From a virus (taxonomy: Duplodnaviria > Caudoviricetes): a stretch of DNA of 64,000 bases. Shown one piece after another: positions 48,333 through 58,817 of this stretch; the stretch's first letter is position 1; each line of letters begins with the position of its first letter. The notes under the pieces were generated by a model. The model was not told where the DNA came from and searched no databases. It was given only the letters and a program-made list of their open reading frames with translations. The stretch is taken from the IMG/VR virus record IMGVR_UViG_3300028603_000002, positions 32,001 to 96,000 of that record. The stretch is one strand, 5' to 3'. The position numbers were made by a program, and so were the translations under genes.

Positions 48333-48409
48333 AAAATAGAAACATAATATATGTTACTTACATCAATTTCATAGACTGACTTAATTACATATATTGATTA
48401 TTCTATTTT
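48333..48409 (+). ncRNA. ACAU/GAUUA internal-loop motif RNA, copy 1
   Basis: AAAATAGAA-ACAT-AATATATGT-TACTT...ACATATATT-GATTA-TTCTATTTT. Confidence 0.7.
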
Positions 48410-48420
48410 ATTTTAAGAAC

Positions 48421-48536
48421 AAAAAGAAAACATTATTGATGTTACTCTGGATTAATCTCCCGAATGGGGGATTGATAGGTTCGATTCCTATCAGGACCGA
48501 ATGGTCTTGTTATACATCAATTGATTATTTCTTTTT
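48421..48536 (+). ncRNA. ACAU/GAUUA motif RNA, copy 2, with tRNA-like T-arm payload
   Basis: Same motif; the insert has three hairpins including GATAGG-TTCGATT-CCTATC. Confidence 0.7.
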
Positions 48537-49034: not shown

Positions 49035-49406
49035 GGGCCATACAGGAATCGACAGGTATAAGAAGTATATTAGGCGATCCGCACAATGATATTAACGTGC
49101 GTCAAAAAGGTATATCAACACAGAGTTGACAAAAATGTCAGTTTAGATTTGGCACTAGAAGCATTGAAAAATGATACTAGCGGCGGCCGTGCTATTAACA
49201 TGGTTACCAAGCCAGCAGCTTTCGCGGTAGCTGCGTAAACCAAACCGTTCTTCCTGAGCTTTCTACCATGTGTAGGTAGCCAACAATGGTTTTTCTTATT
49301 GTACCCATTAAACAATAAGATGGTGGAGTTGCAGGGTTAGTTTATGATCGTTATTCCTAGTATATGTATTATGTTCTGGATGTGGGTTCGAATCCCACAT
49401 GGTCCA
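49035..49406 (+). ncRNA. ssrA: tmRNA
   Basis: GGGCCAT/ATGGTCC acceptor with G3:U70; GGAATCGAC; 3' T-arm GTGGG-TTCGAAT-CCCAC; tag ORF ending AAFAVAA*. Confidence 0.92.
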
Positions 49407-49480
49407 CTTCAAACATGGAATGGGTCACCTCTAGAGCAGGTGTTGCAATGGGGGTGGCTTTATTAAAAACAAGGAAAGAT

Positions 49481-51528: not shown

Positions 51529-51602
51529 AAATAGAAACATAACACATGTTACTTTATGAATCGTTTATTTCAACCAAACTACATGTGTTGATTATTCTAT
51601 TT
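51529..51602 (+). ncRNA. ACAU/GAUUA motif RNA, copy 3
   Basis: AAATAGAA-ACAT-AACACATGT-TACTT...ACATGTGTT-GATTA-TTCTATTT; compensatory changes relative to copy 1. Confidence 0.7.
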
Positions 51603-51692: not shown

Positions 51693-51835
51693 TGCGTGGT
51701 AGTTGAATTGGAATATTATTCGTCCGACGGTAGTATTTTGAAATGAATGACGATTCATTAAGTTTAATACCTTAGAATAATAACAACACTCCCGGCTAGA
51801 GGGAGAGATTGCAGGTTCGACTCCTGTCCACGCAA
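51693..51835 (+). tRNA. tRNA-like RNA with about 70-nt structured D-loop insertion and CUA at the anticodon position
   Basis: TGCGTGG/CCACGCA acceptor, CTCCC-ggCTAga-GGGAG, GCAGG-TTCGACT-CCTGT. Confidence 0.6.
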
Positions 51836-52111: not shown

Positions 52112-52477
52112 ATGAAAACAGGATTTTATAATCTATCAACACTTTCTTTAGAAGAACTAAAGTCTTTTTATAAAGATACAATTCCTCTTTCATATTGTAT
52201 CATGTGTGAATCAAAATACACCACATATAAAAATAAATGGAGATCTGTAGATAATAAATACAATATCAATGATTATATTGAGAGAGTAAATCATGCTAAC
52301 CACAATGTTTGTATAGATAGATCAATTCAAGGAGCTAACCTCCCAGGAACTGAAAGAGGAGAGATTGGATTCAAATTACATGAAACATATGATAGAGACT
52401 GGCATCAAATAACATTCTATACTACATTAGAAAACTTTTATAAATTAGTTGACAAATTTAAACTAAAAGAATTATGA
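52112..52477 (+). CDS. Hypothetical protein
   Basis: ORF track. Confidence 0.55.
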   Translation: MKTGFYNLSTLSLEELKSFYKDTIPLSYCIMCESKYTTYKNKWRSVDNKYNINDYIERVNHANHNVCIDRSIQGANLPGTERGEIGFKLHETYDRDWHQITFYTTLENFYKLVDKFKLKEL

Positions 52478-53169
52478 GATGTTTAGCAGTTGGTGATATA
52501 CACGGCAATTATGATGCATTAATGGATGTATTAGAAAAATGTAATTATGATCCTAATAATGATATGTTAATTGCAATGGGCGATTATACTGATAGAGGAC
52601 CTAAAAACATTGCAGTAGTAGAATTTTTATTATCAATTGGTCATTTTATTGGATTACTTGGAAACCATGATGTTTGGGTAAGAGAATATCTAAATGGAAA
52701 TTATAGTGGAATAGATTGGATATTGAATGGTGGAAAAGTAACATATGATGAATATGAAAAAGCAAAGAAACTTGGTTCATTTGATATTGGTCTACATAAA
52801 GAATTCTTTAATAGTTTACATGAATATTATGTCTTAGAATTGAATGGTAAGAAGTATGGATTCGTCCATGGTGGATTTTATTCGTGGGATGGATTAGGAC
52901 ATGATGATACAGTAAAATATACTTGGTGCAGAGAGTTGTGGGAAGATGTATTTAATGGGCGGAATGAATCAGTAAAAAATCAGTTATCACATTATGATAC
53001 ATTATTTATAGGACATTGCCCGACAAATTTATATGGTGTTAAACCAGATAAACTTCCAGTTAAATATGCAAATGTTATTAACCTAGACCAAGGTATTGCT
53101 TATGAAAATGGAAGATTAACAATATGTGATATAGAAACTGAACAATGTTGGCAATCCAGTAAAAAGTAA
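52474..53169 (+). CDS. Ser/Thr protein phosphatase-type metallophosphoesterase (lambda NinI-like)
   Basis: GDIHG, GDYTDRG, GNHD, NGG, VHGG, GH. Confidence 0.9.
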   Translation: MRCLAVGDIHGNYDALMDVLEKCNYDPNNDMLIAMGDYTDRGPKNIAVVEFLLSIGHFIGLLGNHDVWVREYLNGNYSGIDWILNGGKVTYDEYEKAKKLGSFDIGLHKEFFNSLHEYYVLELNGKKYGFVHGGFYSWDGLGHDDTVKYTWCRELWEDVFNGRNESVKNQLSHYDTLFIGHCPTNLYGVKPDKLPVKYANVINLDQGIAYENGRLTICDIETEQCWQSSKK

Positions 53170-53513: not shown

Positions 53514-53547
53514 CTAGAAAAATATATGAAAAATATTTCAAGAAATA

Positions 53548-54734: not shown

Positions 54735-55319
54735 ATGAGAATAATATTCGATATTCATGGAAAGATGCATCGGTATAAACAATTAACAACTGATGTCAAA
54801 AAGAGTGTACAAATAGGTGATTTAGGATTTAAAAGTCAACATGAATGGTTTTTAGCTAATATGGATTGTGATAATCATAAAGTATTATTTGGTAACCATG
54901 ATTATTATCCATATATAAATCTAAAACATTCGTTGGGTGATTTTGCTTTCTATGAAGGAATATTCTTTATACGTGGTGCTGCTTCAATTGATAAAGCATA
55001 TAGAGTTGCTTATAGAGATTGGTTCCCAGAAGAAGAATTGAATTTTAGACAAATGACTGAATGTTTCAATCTTTATAGTGAAATTAAACCAAAGATTGTA
55101 GTTAGTCATGATTGCCCACAAGCTGTATGCAAAGAATTATTCGGGCATCCAGGTTCTCACACAAGAAATTTTTTACAATTATTATTTGAAGAACATCAAC
55201 CTGATATGTGGTTATTTGGCCACCACCATCAAAATGTAGAATTGGTTCTTGATAATACTTATTTTAAATGTGGTGAAGAATTAGAATATTATGATATATC
55301 AGAAAATTTATTAAAATGA
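54735..55319 (+). CDS. Metallophosphoesterase
   Basis: DIHG, GDLG, GNHD, SHDCP, GHHH. Confidence 0.88.
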   Translation: MRIIFDIHGKMHRYKQLTTDVKKSVQIGDLGFKSQHEWFLANMDCDNHKVLFGNHDYYPYINLKHSLGDFAFYEGIFFIRGAASIDKAYRVAYRDWFPEEELNFRQMTECFNLYSEIKPKIVVSHDCPQAVCKELFGHPGSHTRNFLQLLFEEHQPDMWLFGHHHQNVELVLDNTYFKCGEELEYYDISENLLK

Positions 55320-56406: not shown

Positions 56407-56417
56407 TAATGAAGATA

Positions 56418-56449
56418 TTTGGATAAGTTAAATACTTTTCTTATCTTTA
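56418..56449 (+). promoter_or_regulatory. Promoter TTTGG-N19-TATCTTTA for the motif-RNA/TROVE-TerD unit
   Basis: Repeated fixed-spacing motif. Confidence 0.75.
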
Positions 56450-56523
56450 TTGTCTAATTAATTATTTGACTTGAATACTTAGTATCATGAAAAGACTTCA
56501 TAACAACATATAACTGAAACAAG

Positions 56524-56647
56524 CAAGGGGTAGTGTAATTGGCAGCACAGGTAAATTACATTACACGATTATTATTTAAAAATAAACATGTTTAGTGTTA
56601 CTCGCTTTCTGGTAGCCCTAGTCCTGGTTCGAATCCAGGCCCCTTGC
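56524..56647 (+). tRNA. tRNA-Gln(CUG) carrying a 52-nt insertion (permuted ACAU/GAUUA motif, copy 4) in the anticodon stem
   Basis: Deleting 56552-56603 yields a canonical cloverleaf with GGGCT-ttCTGgt-AGCCC. Confidence 0.75.
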
Positions 56648-56651
56648 CTAA

Positions 56652-56712
56652 ATTAAACATCTAGCAACTTACTCTTAAATTGACAATTAAATTAGTTGTT
56701 AGGATTATTAAT
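56652..56712 (+). ncRNA. ACAU/GAUUA motif RNA, copy 5, in the 5' leader of the 694-aa gene
   Basis: ATTAA-ACAT-CTAGCAACT-TACTC...AGTTGTTAG-GATTA-TTAAT. Confidence 0.7.
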
Positions 56713-56732: not shown

Positions 56733-58817
56733 ATGGAAAAACATGAATTGAAGCACAAAATTACTTTCCTAAAAGTTAAAGGGCTTCATGTTAAACAAGG
56801 TTCTGATTCAGGTAATGATAGCCTAGTACATCAAATCAACCATGAGTTGATGGGTATAGGTTATATACTTGAAAAAGACCTATTTGATAGGTTATGTACT
56901 TTAAAAGAAGGGCAGTTAAATAATGTCTATCATGGAATTGTATCCGCTATAAAAGATGTAGTTGGTGATTCTGATGGATATGAGCCTATCTACAGAAACT
57001 TTCCTCAATCAGTATTAAGCAAGTCTCATTTTGAATTATTCGTCAATGCTATAATTCATTATTGGTCACTTGGTACTTGGAGACCCGAGGATGAAGAATT
57101 TCTTAATAGAGAAGTTAAGTTAGAAAAGGTTGAATTTAAACCTGTTAGATTGCTTATCGATGAACAATTCCACAAAGTATTTGAAAACATTGCTTATAGT
57201 GGTGAATCAATAAGTGCTTTTGATAAGGAAGCTATTGATTTTTATATTGATAATTATGATGCTGTGAATATTGAATTGAGTAAAATCAGGTTCAAAGAAA
57301 CTGCATCATATATTGGTAAGAGATTGATGGATAGTAAAATTCAAATGTTACCAACTAAATCTGCTACTACTGTATTGCGTATAATGAGTGCATATTCTGG
57401 AGGTGATGAGGGATTGAAGGAAAATACTAAATTCAAAAATCCATCAACCAGACAGTGTAATATATTACGTAGGACATTGGAGCAATGTTTTGATTTAGAA
57501 GATTCATTCAAAACATATCGTGAACCATGGTTAAGGTTGTTATTTTACTTGAATCCATTAGCTTCGAATAATGTTAAGAAGTACCCAAACCTTGCAGCAT
57601 ATACTAACCTATTAAGGAATGATCCTGGGTTGTTGGAAACATTCAATGCTAAAGTTGAAAAAGCATTGCAACATAAAAGTCCTGGTATATTTGAATTGTT
57701 GAAACACCGTCCAGGAGTATTTACTAGAAGATTAGATCATTTAGTACGGGTATTTGGTGAAGTTGCAATTGATAATTACCTTCAATTATCAAAATTATCA
57801 TTTGCTAATTTAATTGATGCATATAACCATTTCAGAAGTAGAGACAAAGTACAAAATTCCCGTTCTTCCGTAGTTGCATCAAGTAAAAGAAGCAATGCAC
57901 ATTCATATAAAGCATTAGATGCATTAGATTCAAAACTAGTAGTATCTATTACATCAAAGATCCTTAATAGGATGGTTGATATGAAGGTACAAGGTTTTGA
58001 GGATAAGAAAGTATTCATTGATCGTCAATGGTATTTCAAATCAATTCCAACTAATAATAGAGCGGCTGATTTATCATTAACTCAAAATGCATCATTTGAT
58101 TGTGAGTTATATGATGATAAGAAGAAATGTATCAGGATGTATGTACATTGGCCAGGTAGGTTTGATATTGATTTATCAGGTTGGTTGGTAAATGAAGACA
58201 GAACAGAAGTTCAGAAAATTGGTTGGAATGCTAGATATCATGACAGTGATGGTGCAGTTGTTTATTCAGGTGATAATACAGGTTATAGTGCTAAGAATGC
58301 TGAATACTTAGATATCAATATTCCGAAATTAAAGAAGAAGAGTATTGAGTGGGTAATAACTGAGGCTAGAGTATATCGAGGACCCAAGTTCTCAAAATGG
58401 TCAGGTCAAGGTGTCCATACAGGATTCATGGGTATTGATCATCCTGAAGCAAATAATAGATGGCAACCAAAAACATTGGAAAATGCCATTAAGGTAACAG
58501 TTGATACAGGTAATGTTTATTTAATTGCATTCCATATACCGACTATGAATGTTGTTTATTTAAACTTATCCAGTCCAGATAATAATAGTGTTTCAAATGC
58601 TGATACAGTATTGAAATTCCTAGATATGGTTGAACAAAATGCTGCTTTAGATTCCGGAGCTGTCGAATTTAGAATGTTGGAACTAGGTAGAAAGATAACT
58701 ATTGGTCACGCTATACAGATGAGAATGCCAGCATTATCTGATACGTTAGAAGGAGCGGATGTTGTATTTGATGAAAATACACAAGTTGAAGAACTTCTAA
58801 CAATAGTTAATGACTAA
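56733..58817 (+). CDS. ROT/TROVE-like helical plus C-terminal TerD-domain protein (SCO0854/MXAN_6230-like family, RING absent)
   Basis: PIYRNFP..V, NAIIHYW, RPG.FTRRLDHL.R; TerD motifs DIDLS, YSGD, AEYLDI. Confidence 0.7.
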   Translation: MEKHELKHKITFLKVKGLHVKQGSDSGNDSLVHQINHELMGIGYILEKDLFDRLCTLKEGQLNNVYHGIVSAIKDVVGDSDGYEPIYRNFPQSVLSKSHFELFVNAIIHYWSLGTWRPEDEEFLNREVKLEKVEFKPVRLLIDEQFHKVFENIAYSGESISAFDKEAIDFYIDNYDAVNIELSKIRFKETASYIGKRLMDSKIQMLPTKSATTVLRIMSAYSGGDEGLKENTKFKNPSTRQCNILRRTLEQCFDLEDSFKTYREPWLRLLFYLNPLASNNVKKYPNLAAYTNLLRNDPGLLETFNAKVEKALQHKSPGIFELLKHRPGVFTRRLDHLVRVFGEVAIDNYLQLSKLSFANLIDAYNHFRSRDKVQNSRSSVVASSKRSNAHSYKALDALDSKLVVSITSKILNRMVDMKVQGFEDKKVFIDRQWYFKSIPTNNRAADLSLTQNASFDCELYDDKKKCIRMYVHWPGRFDIDLSGWLVNEDRTEVQKIGWNARYHDSDGAVVYSGDNTGYSAKNAEYLDINIPKLKKKSIEWVITEARVYRGPKFSKWSGQGVHTGFMGIDHPEANNRWQPKTLENAIKVTVDTGNVYLIAFHIPTMNVVYLNLSSPDNNSVSNADTVLKFLDMVEQNAALDSGAVEFRMLELGRKITIGHAIQMRMPALSDTLEGADVVFDENTQVEELLTIVND

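What the first reader, a model, noticed from the sequence alone, without database searches (positions are those of the whole stretch)
56524..56647. tRNA-Gln(CUG) with a precise 52-nt motif insertion in the anticodon stem
Removing 56552-56603 gives a canonical cloverleaf: CAAGGGG-TA-GTGT-AATTGGCA-GCAC-A-GGGCT-TTCTGGT-AGCCC-TAGT-CCTGG-TTCGAAT-CCAGG-CCCCTTG-C. The insert lies between tRNA positions 28 and 29 and is the permuted ACAU/GAUUA motif. It is too short for a group I or II intron and I see no clear bulge-helix-bulge. It is either a new kind of protein-spliced tRNA intron or a permanent tRNA-aptamer chimera that tethers a tRNA or decoy to the neighbouring protein.
Basis: seen in the sequence. 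Interest (0 to 1): 0.8.

Follow-up and report, generated by a model that had tools for sequence, protein, structure and literature searches.

The report
tRNA carrying a Ro-like protein handle
This phage gene encodes a complete tRNA-shaped RNA with an extra conserved hairpin grafted into its anticodon stem; the same hairpin recurs next to a Ro60-shaped protein gene in many phages and bacteria, so it is most likely the protein's binding handle on a tRNA-mimic partner RNA rather than a broken tRNA or an ordinary intron.

Summary
Window 56524-56647(+) is a full cloverleaf once 56552-56603 is removed (Gln, CUG), and the 52-nt insert is a circular permutation of a covarying motif (P1, ACAU/GAUUA loop, 9-bp P2, UACUY) present four more times in the window. 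It is not decay. A covariance model built only from other loci finds it at 92 bits (E 8e-20). At least 20 tRNA-like genes in phage and bacterial loci carry the same hairpin in the anticodon stem (28/29 or 29/30) or loop. All lie upstream of homologues (40-51% identity) of the adjacent 694-aa protein. That protein has a C-terminal TerD domain and a helical part whose best long structural matches are Ro60 proteins. The same handle also closes circularly permuted tRNA-like RNAs and simple hairpins, including one in the protein's own mRNA leader.

The best reading is a permanent Y-RNA-like tRNA mimic tethered to a Ro-like protein (about 0.6). Splicing is not excluded (about 0.2): removal restores a perfect 5-bp stem in 15 of 16 cases. 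Against it, loop lengths and anticodons vary between related copies, splice distances are not fixed, and two complete phage genomes encode no RtcB and this one no splicing endonuclease. No RNA data could be obtained. This scan has flagged the same RNA-protein system before on other DNA.

The parts
56412..56452 (+). Promoter-like repeat (TTTG ... TATCTTTAT) about 70 nt upstream of the tRNA-like gene. It probably starts the transcription unit of chimera, leader motif and protein gene.
   Evidence: It belongs to repeat family D5, with copies at 53542, 62187 and 62841. Promoter function is inferred, not tested.
56524..56551 (+). 5' part of the tRNA-like body: acceptor 5' strand, U8, D arm, position 26 and positions 27-28 of the anticodon stem.
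56552..56603 (+). The inserted handle. It comprises linker UAAAUU (56552-57), P2' (56558-66), GAUUA (56567-71), capped P1 hairpin (56572-85), ACAU (56586-89), P2 (56590-98) and UACUC (56599-603).
   Evidence: P2 and P1 covary across 16 chimeras.
56604..56647 (+). 3' part of the tRNA-like body: positions 29-31, anticodon loop UUCUGGU, positions 39-43, variable loop, T arm, acceptor 3' strand and discriminator C.
56652..56712 (+). Unpermuted copy of the handle with a short loop. It starts a few nt after the tRNA-like 3' end and ends 21 nt before the start codon, in the leader of the protein mRNA.
   Evidence: A copy sits in the same place in nearly all homologous loci.
56733..58817 (+). A 694-aa protein (P0001) with an N-terminal helical domain resembling the Ro60 ring and a C-terminal TerD domain. 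It is the presumed partner of the handle.
48333..48409 (+). Unpermuted handle with a short loop, directly after tRNA-Pro.
48421..48536 (+). Unpermuted handle whose payload holds a T arm flanked by two hairpins (a tRNA-like payload), just before tRNA-Met.
51529..51602 (+). Unpermuted handle with a short loop, wedged between two tRNA genes.

Best explanation
The gene encodes a stable chimeric small RNA. It is a complete, correctly folding tRNA body, Gln-like with a CUG anticodon hairpin, and a 52-nt hairpin branches off the 5' strand of its anticodon stem as a three-way junction. That hairpin is the shared handle of a family of small RNAs. Its parts are P1, an asymmetric ACAU/GAUUA internal loop closed by a G-U pair, a 9-bp P2 and single-stranded UACUY. 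The handle most likely binds the Ro60-shaped, TerD-containing protein encoded 86 nt downstream. The particle would then resemble a Ro60/Y-RNA particle, with the handle docking the protein and the tRNA part serving as the displayed module. That module could act as bait, decoy or adaptor for enzymes or defence nucleases that recognise tRNAs. The RNA is probably cut out of the promoter-to-protein transcript by RNase P and RNase Z like any tRNA. That cut would also free the mRNA, whose leader carries a second handle, possibly for feedback control. Shown here: the structure, its conservation and covariation, the exclusive genomic linkage to the protein family, and the existence of simple-hairpin and permuted-tRNA forms. 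Inferred: protein binding, processing, persistence of the hairpin in the mature RNA, and the biological role.
For: (1) Conservation. A leave-one-out model finds the element at 92.4 bits, and it is the only such element in the complete 171.9-kb phage genome. At least 20 chimeras occur in phage contigs, in a named Myxococcales genome (L055) and in an 897-kb, 62% G+C (presumably bacterial) metagenome contig (L026). (2) Covariation. In 16 chimeras 96.4% of cells pair, against 61% when shuffled. The acceptor, D and T stems pair in 100% of cells, and 8 of 9 P2 pairs show compensatory changes. RNAalifold independently predicts the same fold. U8, A14, G18, G19, A21 and the GGUUCGA...UCC core of the T arm are invariant, so a true L-shaped tRNA fold is under selection. 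(3) Linkage. All motif copies found lie on the protein's strand within about 2 kb upstream of P0001 homologues, and usually one sits just before the start codon. (4) The handle works without a tRNA. Of 69 distinct unpermuted copies, 51 are plain hairpins with 15-43-nt loops. Of the 18 with long payloads, 16 contain a T arm and several are clearly circularly permuted tRNA-like RNAs with the same junction. This is the architecture of bacterial Y RNAs, which are encoded upstream of Ro60 and carry tRNA-like domains in either orientation (PMC4201824). (5) The protein. The AlphaFold model is confident (pLDDT 90.7). TerD matches the C-terminal domain at Z 12.9. Three Ro60 structures match at Z 11.9, 10.2 and 9.1 over 289-315 residues, and the next unrelated hit scores 6.0. 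(6) The anticodon is not conserved among related bodies: Pro UGG versus Gln UUG at 79% identity, two Myxococcales paralogues at 85%, and Gly UCC versus an 8-nt loop at 81%. Loops of 8 or 9 nt and one C33 also occur. (7) No RtcB, Rnl2-type ligase or tRNA splicing endonuclease is encoded in this complete phage, and no RtcB in a second complete 345-kb phage that carries a chimera.
Against: No RNA-level data were available, so persistence of the hairpin in the mature RNA is not shown. Conceptual removal restores a perfect 5-bp stem in 15 of 16 chimeras and a canonical 7-nt loop with U33 in about 11. In L019 the hairpin sits in the anticodon loop, yet removal regenerates the same CUUAUAA loop seen in two other Ile(UAU)-type chimeras. 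Selection on a spliced decoder would produce exactly this pattern. The Ro60 resemblance is at fold level only. Pfam TROVE does not hit the protein or the genome. Foldseek did not list Ro60. The N-terminal domain folded alone (pLDDT 75.8) matches Ro60 only at Z 7.6, which ties by Z with generic helical repeats, although over 242 rather than about 90 residues. Binding of the protein to the RNA is inferred from gene linkage alone.
Confidence: 0.6

Rival explanations
1. The handle is an excision signal that works like the archaeal bulge-helix-bulge motif. In tRNA genes it would be removed as a short intron and the halves ligated, giving a working tRNA-Gln(CUG). Around permuted tRNA-like payloads it would bring the ends together for cutting and circularisation, followed by RNase P/Z opening of the acceptor loop. 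The adjacent protein would guide or chaperone the reaction, and a host nuclease and ligase would do the chemistry.
For: Removal restores 5/5 stem pairs in 15 of 16 cases and a canonical loop in most, and ARAGORN then calls all 14 tested as tRNAs. The insertion positions (28/29, 29/30, in the loop) and the coexistence of intron-like and permuted-tRNA arrangements parallel the archaeal and red-algal BHB systems reviewed in PMC4090602 (listed; the parallel itself rests on my own knowledge). Ile(UAU), Lys and Gln types are typical useful phage tRNAs. CAG makes up 20% of Gln codons here, and no other CUG tRNA is present.
Against: The distance from UACU to the second exon varies from 0 to 2 nt, and the 5' linker from 4 to 8 nt, so no fixed ruler exists. 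Loops of 8 and 9 nt, one C33, one unrestorable loop and changing anticodons in related bodies do not fit decoders. Most copies are plain hairpins with nothing to splice. This phage encodes no splicing endonuclease, RtcB or Rnl2 ligase. Ro60-type proteins are not known nucleases. No known ribozyme family matches.
Confidence: 0.2
2. The tRNA body is only a production scaffold. It supplies RNase P/Z processing sites and stability so that the handle hairpin is made as a defined small RNA, and the tRNA-like part has no partner of its own.
For: In this window every handle copy abuts tRNA genes or lies inside one, so tRNA processing would release all of them. From my own knowledge, engineered tRNA scaffolds work this way.
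Against: A scaffold would not need an intact anticodon hairpin. Yet a 5-bp stem and a roughly 7-nt loop are kept next to the junction in both topologies. The Myxococcales loci keep the full tRNA shape without any tRNA array nearby.
Confidence: 0.15
3. It is a dead tRNA-Gln gene disrupted by a small mobile or repeat element.
For: tRNA finders do not call it, and the insert is a repeat family member.
Against: The same arrangement is conserved with compensatory changes across loci whose proteins are only 40-51% identical, from AT-rich phages to GC-rich Myxococcales. All stems and tertiary nucleotides are intact.
Confidence: 0.03

Closest known systems
Bacterial and phage Y RNAs (YrlA, YrlB, Yrn1) with Ro60/Rsr (Chen et al. 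2014, PMC4201824)
   Same: Several small RNAs are encoded just upstream of a ring-shaped RNA-binding protein gene. They share a conserved protein-binding stem, and at least one carries a tRNA-like domain with T and D arms. The tRNA-like domain occurs in different orientations relative to the RNA ends. M. smegmatis YrlA is cut by RNase P in vitro and is cleaved and CCA-tailed in vivo.
   Different: The handle sequence (ACAU/GAUUA, UACUY) is unrelated to the Y-RNA helix, and neither the Rfam YrlA model nor any other family matches it. The protein has no Pfam TROVE hit and carries TerD where Ro60 has a vWA domain. This copy is a complete tRNA with free acceptor ends and its own anticodon hairpin, and the handle is an internal capped hairpin rather than the paired RNA termini.
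Archaeal non-canonical tRNA introns and permuted or split tRNA genes processed through the bulge-helix-bulge motif (review PMC4090602)
   Same: A short insert lies in the anticodon stem at positions such as 28/29 or 29/30 or in the loop. One RNA motif is used both inside tRNAs and around permuted tRNAs.
   Different: No BHB geometry is present, and the phage encodes no splicing endonuclease. The host range is bacterial and phage. The motif also occurs as plain hairpins and in an mRNA leader. Excision is not shown.
Group I self-splicing introns in bacterial and phage tRNA genes
   Same: They interrupt a bacterial-type tRNA gene in the anticodon arm.
   Different: The insert is 52 nt rather than 200 nt or more. 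It has no group I core and no Rfam intron match. It lies in the stem rather than the loop.
Engineered tRNA scaffolds for producing recombinant RNA (from my own knowledge; not checked in the library)
   Same: A foreign hairpin is grafted onto the anticodon arm of a tRNA, and the tRNA body provides folding, processing and stability.
   Different: This case is natural and conserved, it keeps the anticodon hairpin, and it is linked to a dedicated protein.

Membership tests
Canonical decoding tRNA gene | Acceptor, D and T arms with the conserved tertiary nucleotides | tested here: met
   The acceptor has 7 bp, the D stem 4 bp and the T stem 5 bp. U8, A14, G18, G19, A21 and the T-loop core are present and invariant across 18 relatives.
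Canonical decoding tRNA gene | Uninterrupted 5-bp anticodon stem with a 7-nt loop in the gene as encoded, and recognition by tRNA finders | tested here: not met
   A 52-nt insert lies between positions 28 and 29. ARAGORN and Rfam tRNA do not call the window copy. It is called only after the insert is deleted.
Group I intron in tRNA | A catalytic core of about 200 nt or more (P3-P9) that matches the Rfam Intron_gpI model | tested here: not met
   The insert is 52 nt and gives no such Rfam match even at E up to 10.
BHB (archaeal/eukaryal type) tRNA intron | A bulge-helix-bulge at the exon-intron junctions | tested here: not met
   The junction linkers are 4-8 nt on the 5' side and UACU plus 0-2 nt on the 3' side, with no 3-4-3 geometry.
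BHB (archaeal/eukaryal type) tRNA intron | A tRNA splicing endonuclease is available | tested here: not met
   PF01974 is absent from the complete phage genome, while the control archaeal genomes gave hits. The host genome could not be tested.
Y RNA (Rfam YrlA, RF02553) | Match to the family covariance model | tested here: not met
   No match was found in the window or in 13 related loci, at gathering scores or at E up to 10.
Y RNA (functional class) | Encoded next to the partner protein gene, with a conserved stem and a tRNA-like module | tested here: met
   The linkage is with the P0001 family, not with a canonical Ro60.
Y RNA (functional class) | Physically bound by the ring protein | not testable with these tools
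   This needs co-immunoprecipitation or a gel-shift assay.
Ro60/TROVE protein (for the neighbour P0001) | Pfam TROVE domain (PF05731) | tested here: not met
   There is no hit for P0001, for 56 family members, or in the genome.
Ro60/TROVE protein (for the neighbour P0001) | Ro60-like helical ring fold | tested here: inconclusive
   With the full model, three Ro60 structures score Z 9.1-11.9 over 289-315 residues, and the next unrelated hit scores 6.0. With the N-terminal domain folded alone, Rsr scores Z 7.6 over 242 residues, which ties by Z with generic repeat proteins. Foldseek did not list Ro60.
Ro60/TROVE protein (for the neighbour P0001) | C-terminal vWA domain with a MIDAS site | tested here: not met
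   The C-terminal domain is TerD.
ACAU/GAUUA handle RNAs (family defined in this scan) | P1, an ACAU//GAUUA internal loop, a 9-bp covarying P2 and UACUY, on the strand of and upstream of a P0001 homologue | tested here: met
   The window copy is the circularly permuted form with a capped P1.

The most novel reading that the evidence does not exclude
The handle could be a bacterial and phage counterpart of the archaeal bulge-helix-bulge signal. On this reading a Ro-like/TerD protein recognises it and directs excision and ligation. The genes would then be the first protein-dependent tRNA introns and permuted tRNA genes in bacteria and their viruses, and the phage could switch tRNA supply on during infection.
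Probability: 0.15. Interest if true: 0.95.

Novelty: new variant of a known kind. Interest (0 to 1): 0.7.

Why it matters
If the main reading is right, phages and some bacteria make complete tRNAs that are permanently tagged with a docking hairpin for a Ro60-shaped protein. This would extend the Ro60/Y-RNA principle of a ring protein with a tRNA-mimic adaptor. The extension involves a protein family of about 1,800 clusters at 50% identity that has no annotation, and an RNA family that is absent from Rfam. It also gives a concrete handle on a long-standing question, namely what the tRNA-like part of Y RNAs is for. In this family the tRNA part is complete and varies in its anticodon loop, as a bait or decoy for anticodon-directed enzymes would. 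It matters for annotation too, because the window copy, and every chimera in the seven related loci scanned with ARAGORN, went uncalled. The family is also a natural precedent for tRNA-scaffolded RNA display. If the hairpin is instead excised, it would be a new class of tRNA intron.

Tried and rejected
- Phage GenBank collection: no similar DNA was found.
- Viral contig scan with the single protein found nothing, and the diverse alignment A1 was too divergent to seed a scan. The closer alignment A2 worked.
- Rfam at permissive thresholds gave only chance-level hits (snoRNAs, SpF41) over the region.
- Known small ribozymes, group I introns and BHB introns were considered and rejected.
- Enzyme families: RtcB, Rnl2-type ligase, tRNA intron endonuclease and TROVE are absent from the phage genome. 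The T4 Rnl1 search is uninformative because its controls were silent.
- ARAGORN on all trial deletions was too permissive to define the boundaries. An explicit stem and loop enumeration replaced it.
- Alternative pairing: the minimum-energy fold of the 124-nt RNA pairs the insert's 5' arm with the D arm over 11 bp (z-score only -2). This pairing is not conserved in the relatives, so I treat it as incidental.
- An apparent in-frame stop in the L012 homologue was only the codon before the start codon, so there is no recoding.
- Gene neighbours in the bacterial-type loci L055 and L026 gave no functional clue.

Full report
**Setting**

The window is bases 32001-96000 of a complete 171.9-kb virus record with terminal repeats. 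It has 31% G+C. Between 48 and 56 kb it carries a tRNA island of 22 ARAGORN tRNAs and a tmRNA, and Rfam finds two further tRNAs that ARAGORN missed.

**The observation**

The flagged stretch 56524-56647 is not called by either tRNA program. Deleting 56552-56603 gives a 72-nt cloverleaf that ARAGORN calls tRNA-Gln(ctg). An explicit enumeration finds one solution with five stem pairs and a 7-nt loop, which places the insert between positions 28 and 29. The body resembles the phage's own intact tRNA-Gln(UUG) in its D arm and in having G37.

**The insert is a permuted copy of a structured module**

Four other copies in the window read P1, ACAU, 9-bp P2, UACUY, a variable payload, P2', GAUUA, P1'. 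In the insert the order is P2', GAUUA, capped P1, ACAU, P2, UACUC. The open end therefore faces the tRNA. P1 and P2 differ in sequence between copies but stay paired.

**It is conserved, not decay**

- The downstream 694-aa protein (P0001) has no Pfam hit. It does have more than 170 homologues at 41-51% identity and about 1,800 clusters at 50% identity.
- Loci of homologues were fetched from ENA/Logan assemblies, viral contigs, metagenomes and genomes. They show the same RNAs just upstream of the gene and on its strand.
- Of 83 ACAT-N9-TACT sites on that strand, 62 have a partner with at least 8 of 9 pairs, against 3 in the control. Only 11 such sites lie on the other strand, and none of them is paired.
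- Sixteen permuted copies all lie inside tRNA-like genes. A covariance model then found more, in L026, L014/L015/L044, L028 and L021.
- Across the 16, 96.4% of cells pair, against 61% when shuffled and 33-46% when the partners are slid by 1-3 columns. The acceptor, D and T stems pair in 100% of cells, and 8 of 9 P2 pairs show double changes. RNAalifold predicts the same fold.
- A model built without the window sequence scores the window element at 92.4 bits, E 8e-20. Ordinary tRNAs reach at most 50.5 bits, and no second chimera exists in the genome.
- Two chimeras sit in front of the homologue in a GC-rich Myxococcales chromosome, so the arrangement is not specific to phages.

**The neighbouring protein**

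- The AlphaFold model is confident (pLDDT 90.7, pTM 0.90).
- The C-terminal 170 residues are a TerD domain.
- An exhaustive structural search ranks three Ro60 structures at Z 11.9, 10.2 and 9.1 over 289-315 residues. These are the Xenopus protein, the Thermus phage phiLo protein and Deinococcus Rsr. The next unrelated hit scores 6.0.
- Folded alone with a shallower alignment (pLDDT 75.8), the helical domain still has Rsr on top. The score is only Z 7.6 and ties by Z with generic helical repeats, although the Rsr alignment is 2.5 times longer.
- I therefore call the protein Ro60-shaped. Homology to Ro60 is not established.

**What the other copies say**

Among 69 distinct unpermuted copies, 51 are plain hairpins with short A-rich loops. 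Sixteen of the 18 long payloads contain a T arm. Several are evident circularly permuted tRNAs. Their order is anticodon hairpin, T arm, acceptor stem closed by a loop, then D arm, and they meet the handle at the same junction as in the chimeras. This is the architecture reported for bacterial Y RNAs. Those RNAs lie upstream of Ro60, come as several per locus, carry tRNA-like domains in either orientation, and in M. smegmatis YrlA is cut by RNase P in vitro and is cleaved and CCA-tailed in vivo (PMC4201824). The window chimera is the same architecture with the chain break moved from P1 to the acceptor end.

**Intron or permanent chimera?**

For excision:
- Removal restores 5/5 stem pairs in 15 of 16 chimeras and a canonical loop in most.
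- One hairpin lies in the anticodon loop, yet its removal regenerates the same CUUAUAA loop seen in two stem-inserted Ile(UAU)-type chimeras.

Against excision:
- The distances from the conserved nucleotides to the would-be splice sites vary.
- Loops of 8 and 9 nt, one C33 and one unrestorable loop occur.
- Related bodies carry different anticodons.
- Most handle copies have nothing to splice.
- The complete phage lacks RtcB, an Rnl2-type ligase and a splicing endonuclease, and a second complete phage with a chimera lacks RtcB.

A three-way junction equally explains why both halves of the anticodon stem stay paired. I put the permanent tRNA-mimic reading at about 0.6, excision at about 0.2, a mere processing scaffold at about 0.15 and a pseudogene at about 0.03. 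No RNA data could be obtained.

**Mechanism proposed (inferred)**

A promoter-like repeat at 56412-56452 would drive one transcript. RNase P and RNase Z would release the 124-nt chimera. The remaining mRNA would begin with the leader handle at 56652-56712, which ends 21 nt before the start codon and is a likely feedback site. The protein would dock on the handle and carry the tRNA-shaped module.

**Novelty**

Rfam 15 has no model for the handle. My literature searches found nothing describing a TerD-fused Ro-like protein with such RNAs. Earlier notes of this scan describe the same RNA-protein system in other genomes, including cloverleafs with an extra arm. They agree with this reading but are not independent evidence.

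Noticed in passing
window 51693-51835 (+): A 143-nt tRNA-like gene with a good acceptor stem and T arm but about 70 extra nt between the D region and the T arm. These include a hairpin at 51742-51760 and a CUCCC/GGGAG arm. ARAGORN and Rfam at gathering scores do not call it, and my models score it about 33 bits. It does not contain the ACAU/GAUUA handle.
   Followed up: partly
window 45408, 48051, 53522, 56392, 62187, 62821 (+): A repeated 40-70-nt element (ATATTTGG ... TTATCTTTATTA) lies upstream of genes. It looks like a phage promoter of the TTTG / TAnnTTTG (Bacteroidota) type, and one copy precedes the chimera.
   Followed up: no
window 49035-49409 (+): A phage-encoded tmRNA (Rfam, 54 bits) lies inside the tRNA island. 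ARAGORN did not report it.
   Followed up: no
window 52474-53169 and 54735-55319 (+): Two calcineurin-like phosphoesterase genes are embedded in the tRNA island. They may be RNA-end healing enzymes.
   Followed up: no
window 56523 and 56647: G at position -1 can pair with the discriminator C73, giving an 8-bp acceptor stem as in tRNA-His. The same G(-1)/C73 potential exists in the two Myxococcales chimeras of the same D-arm class (L055). The first pair, C1-G72, is unusual for a bacterial tRNA.
   Followed up: partly
window 56533-56543 with 56555-56565: The 5' arm of the insert is complementary to the D arm over 11 bp, with one G-U pair. The minimum-energy fold uses this pairing (z-score -2). 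It is only partly present in L037 and L010 and absent in L055b, so it is probably incidental, although a conformational switch is possible.
   Followed up: partly
L010 1560-1690: A structured-looking 130-nt stretch closed by a 10-bp stem lies just upstream of the first chimera. It is not the handle and is not a tRNA.
   Followed up: no
L010 6465-8655: A Thg1-like gene and an RNA ligase gene lie 2-4 kb downstream of the P0001 homologue in that contig. This hints at a link to tRNA end repair in some relatives.
   Followed up: no
L028 6815-7005 and L012 7430-7524: Further tRNA-model hits of unusual length (191 and 95 nt) lie downstream of the protein gene in related phages. They may carry other inserts.
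   Followed up: no
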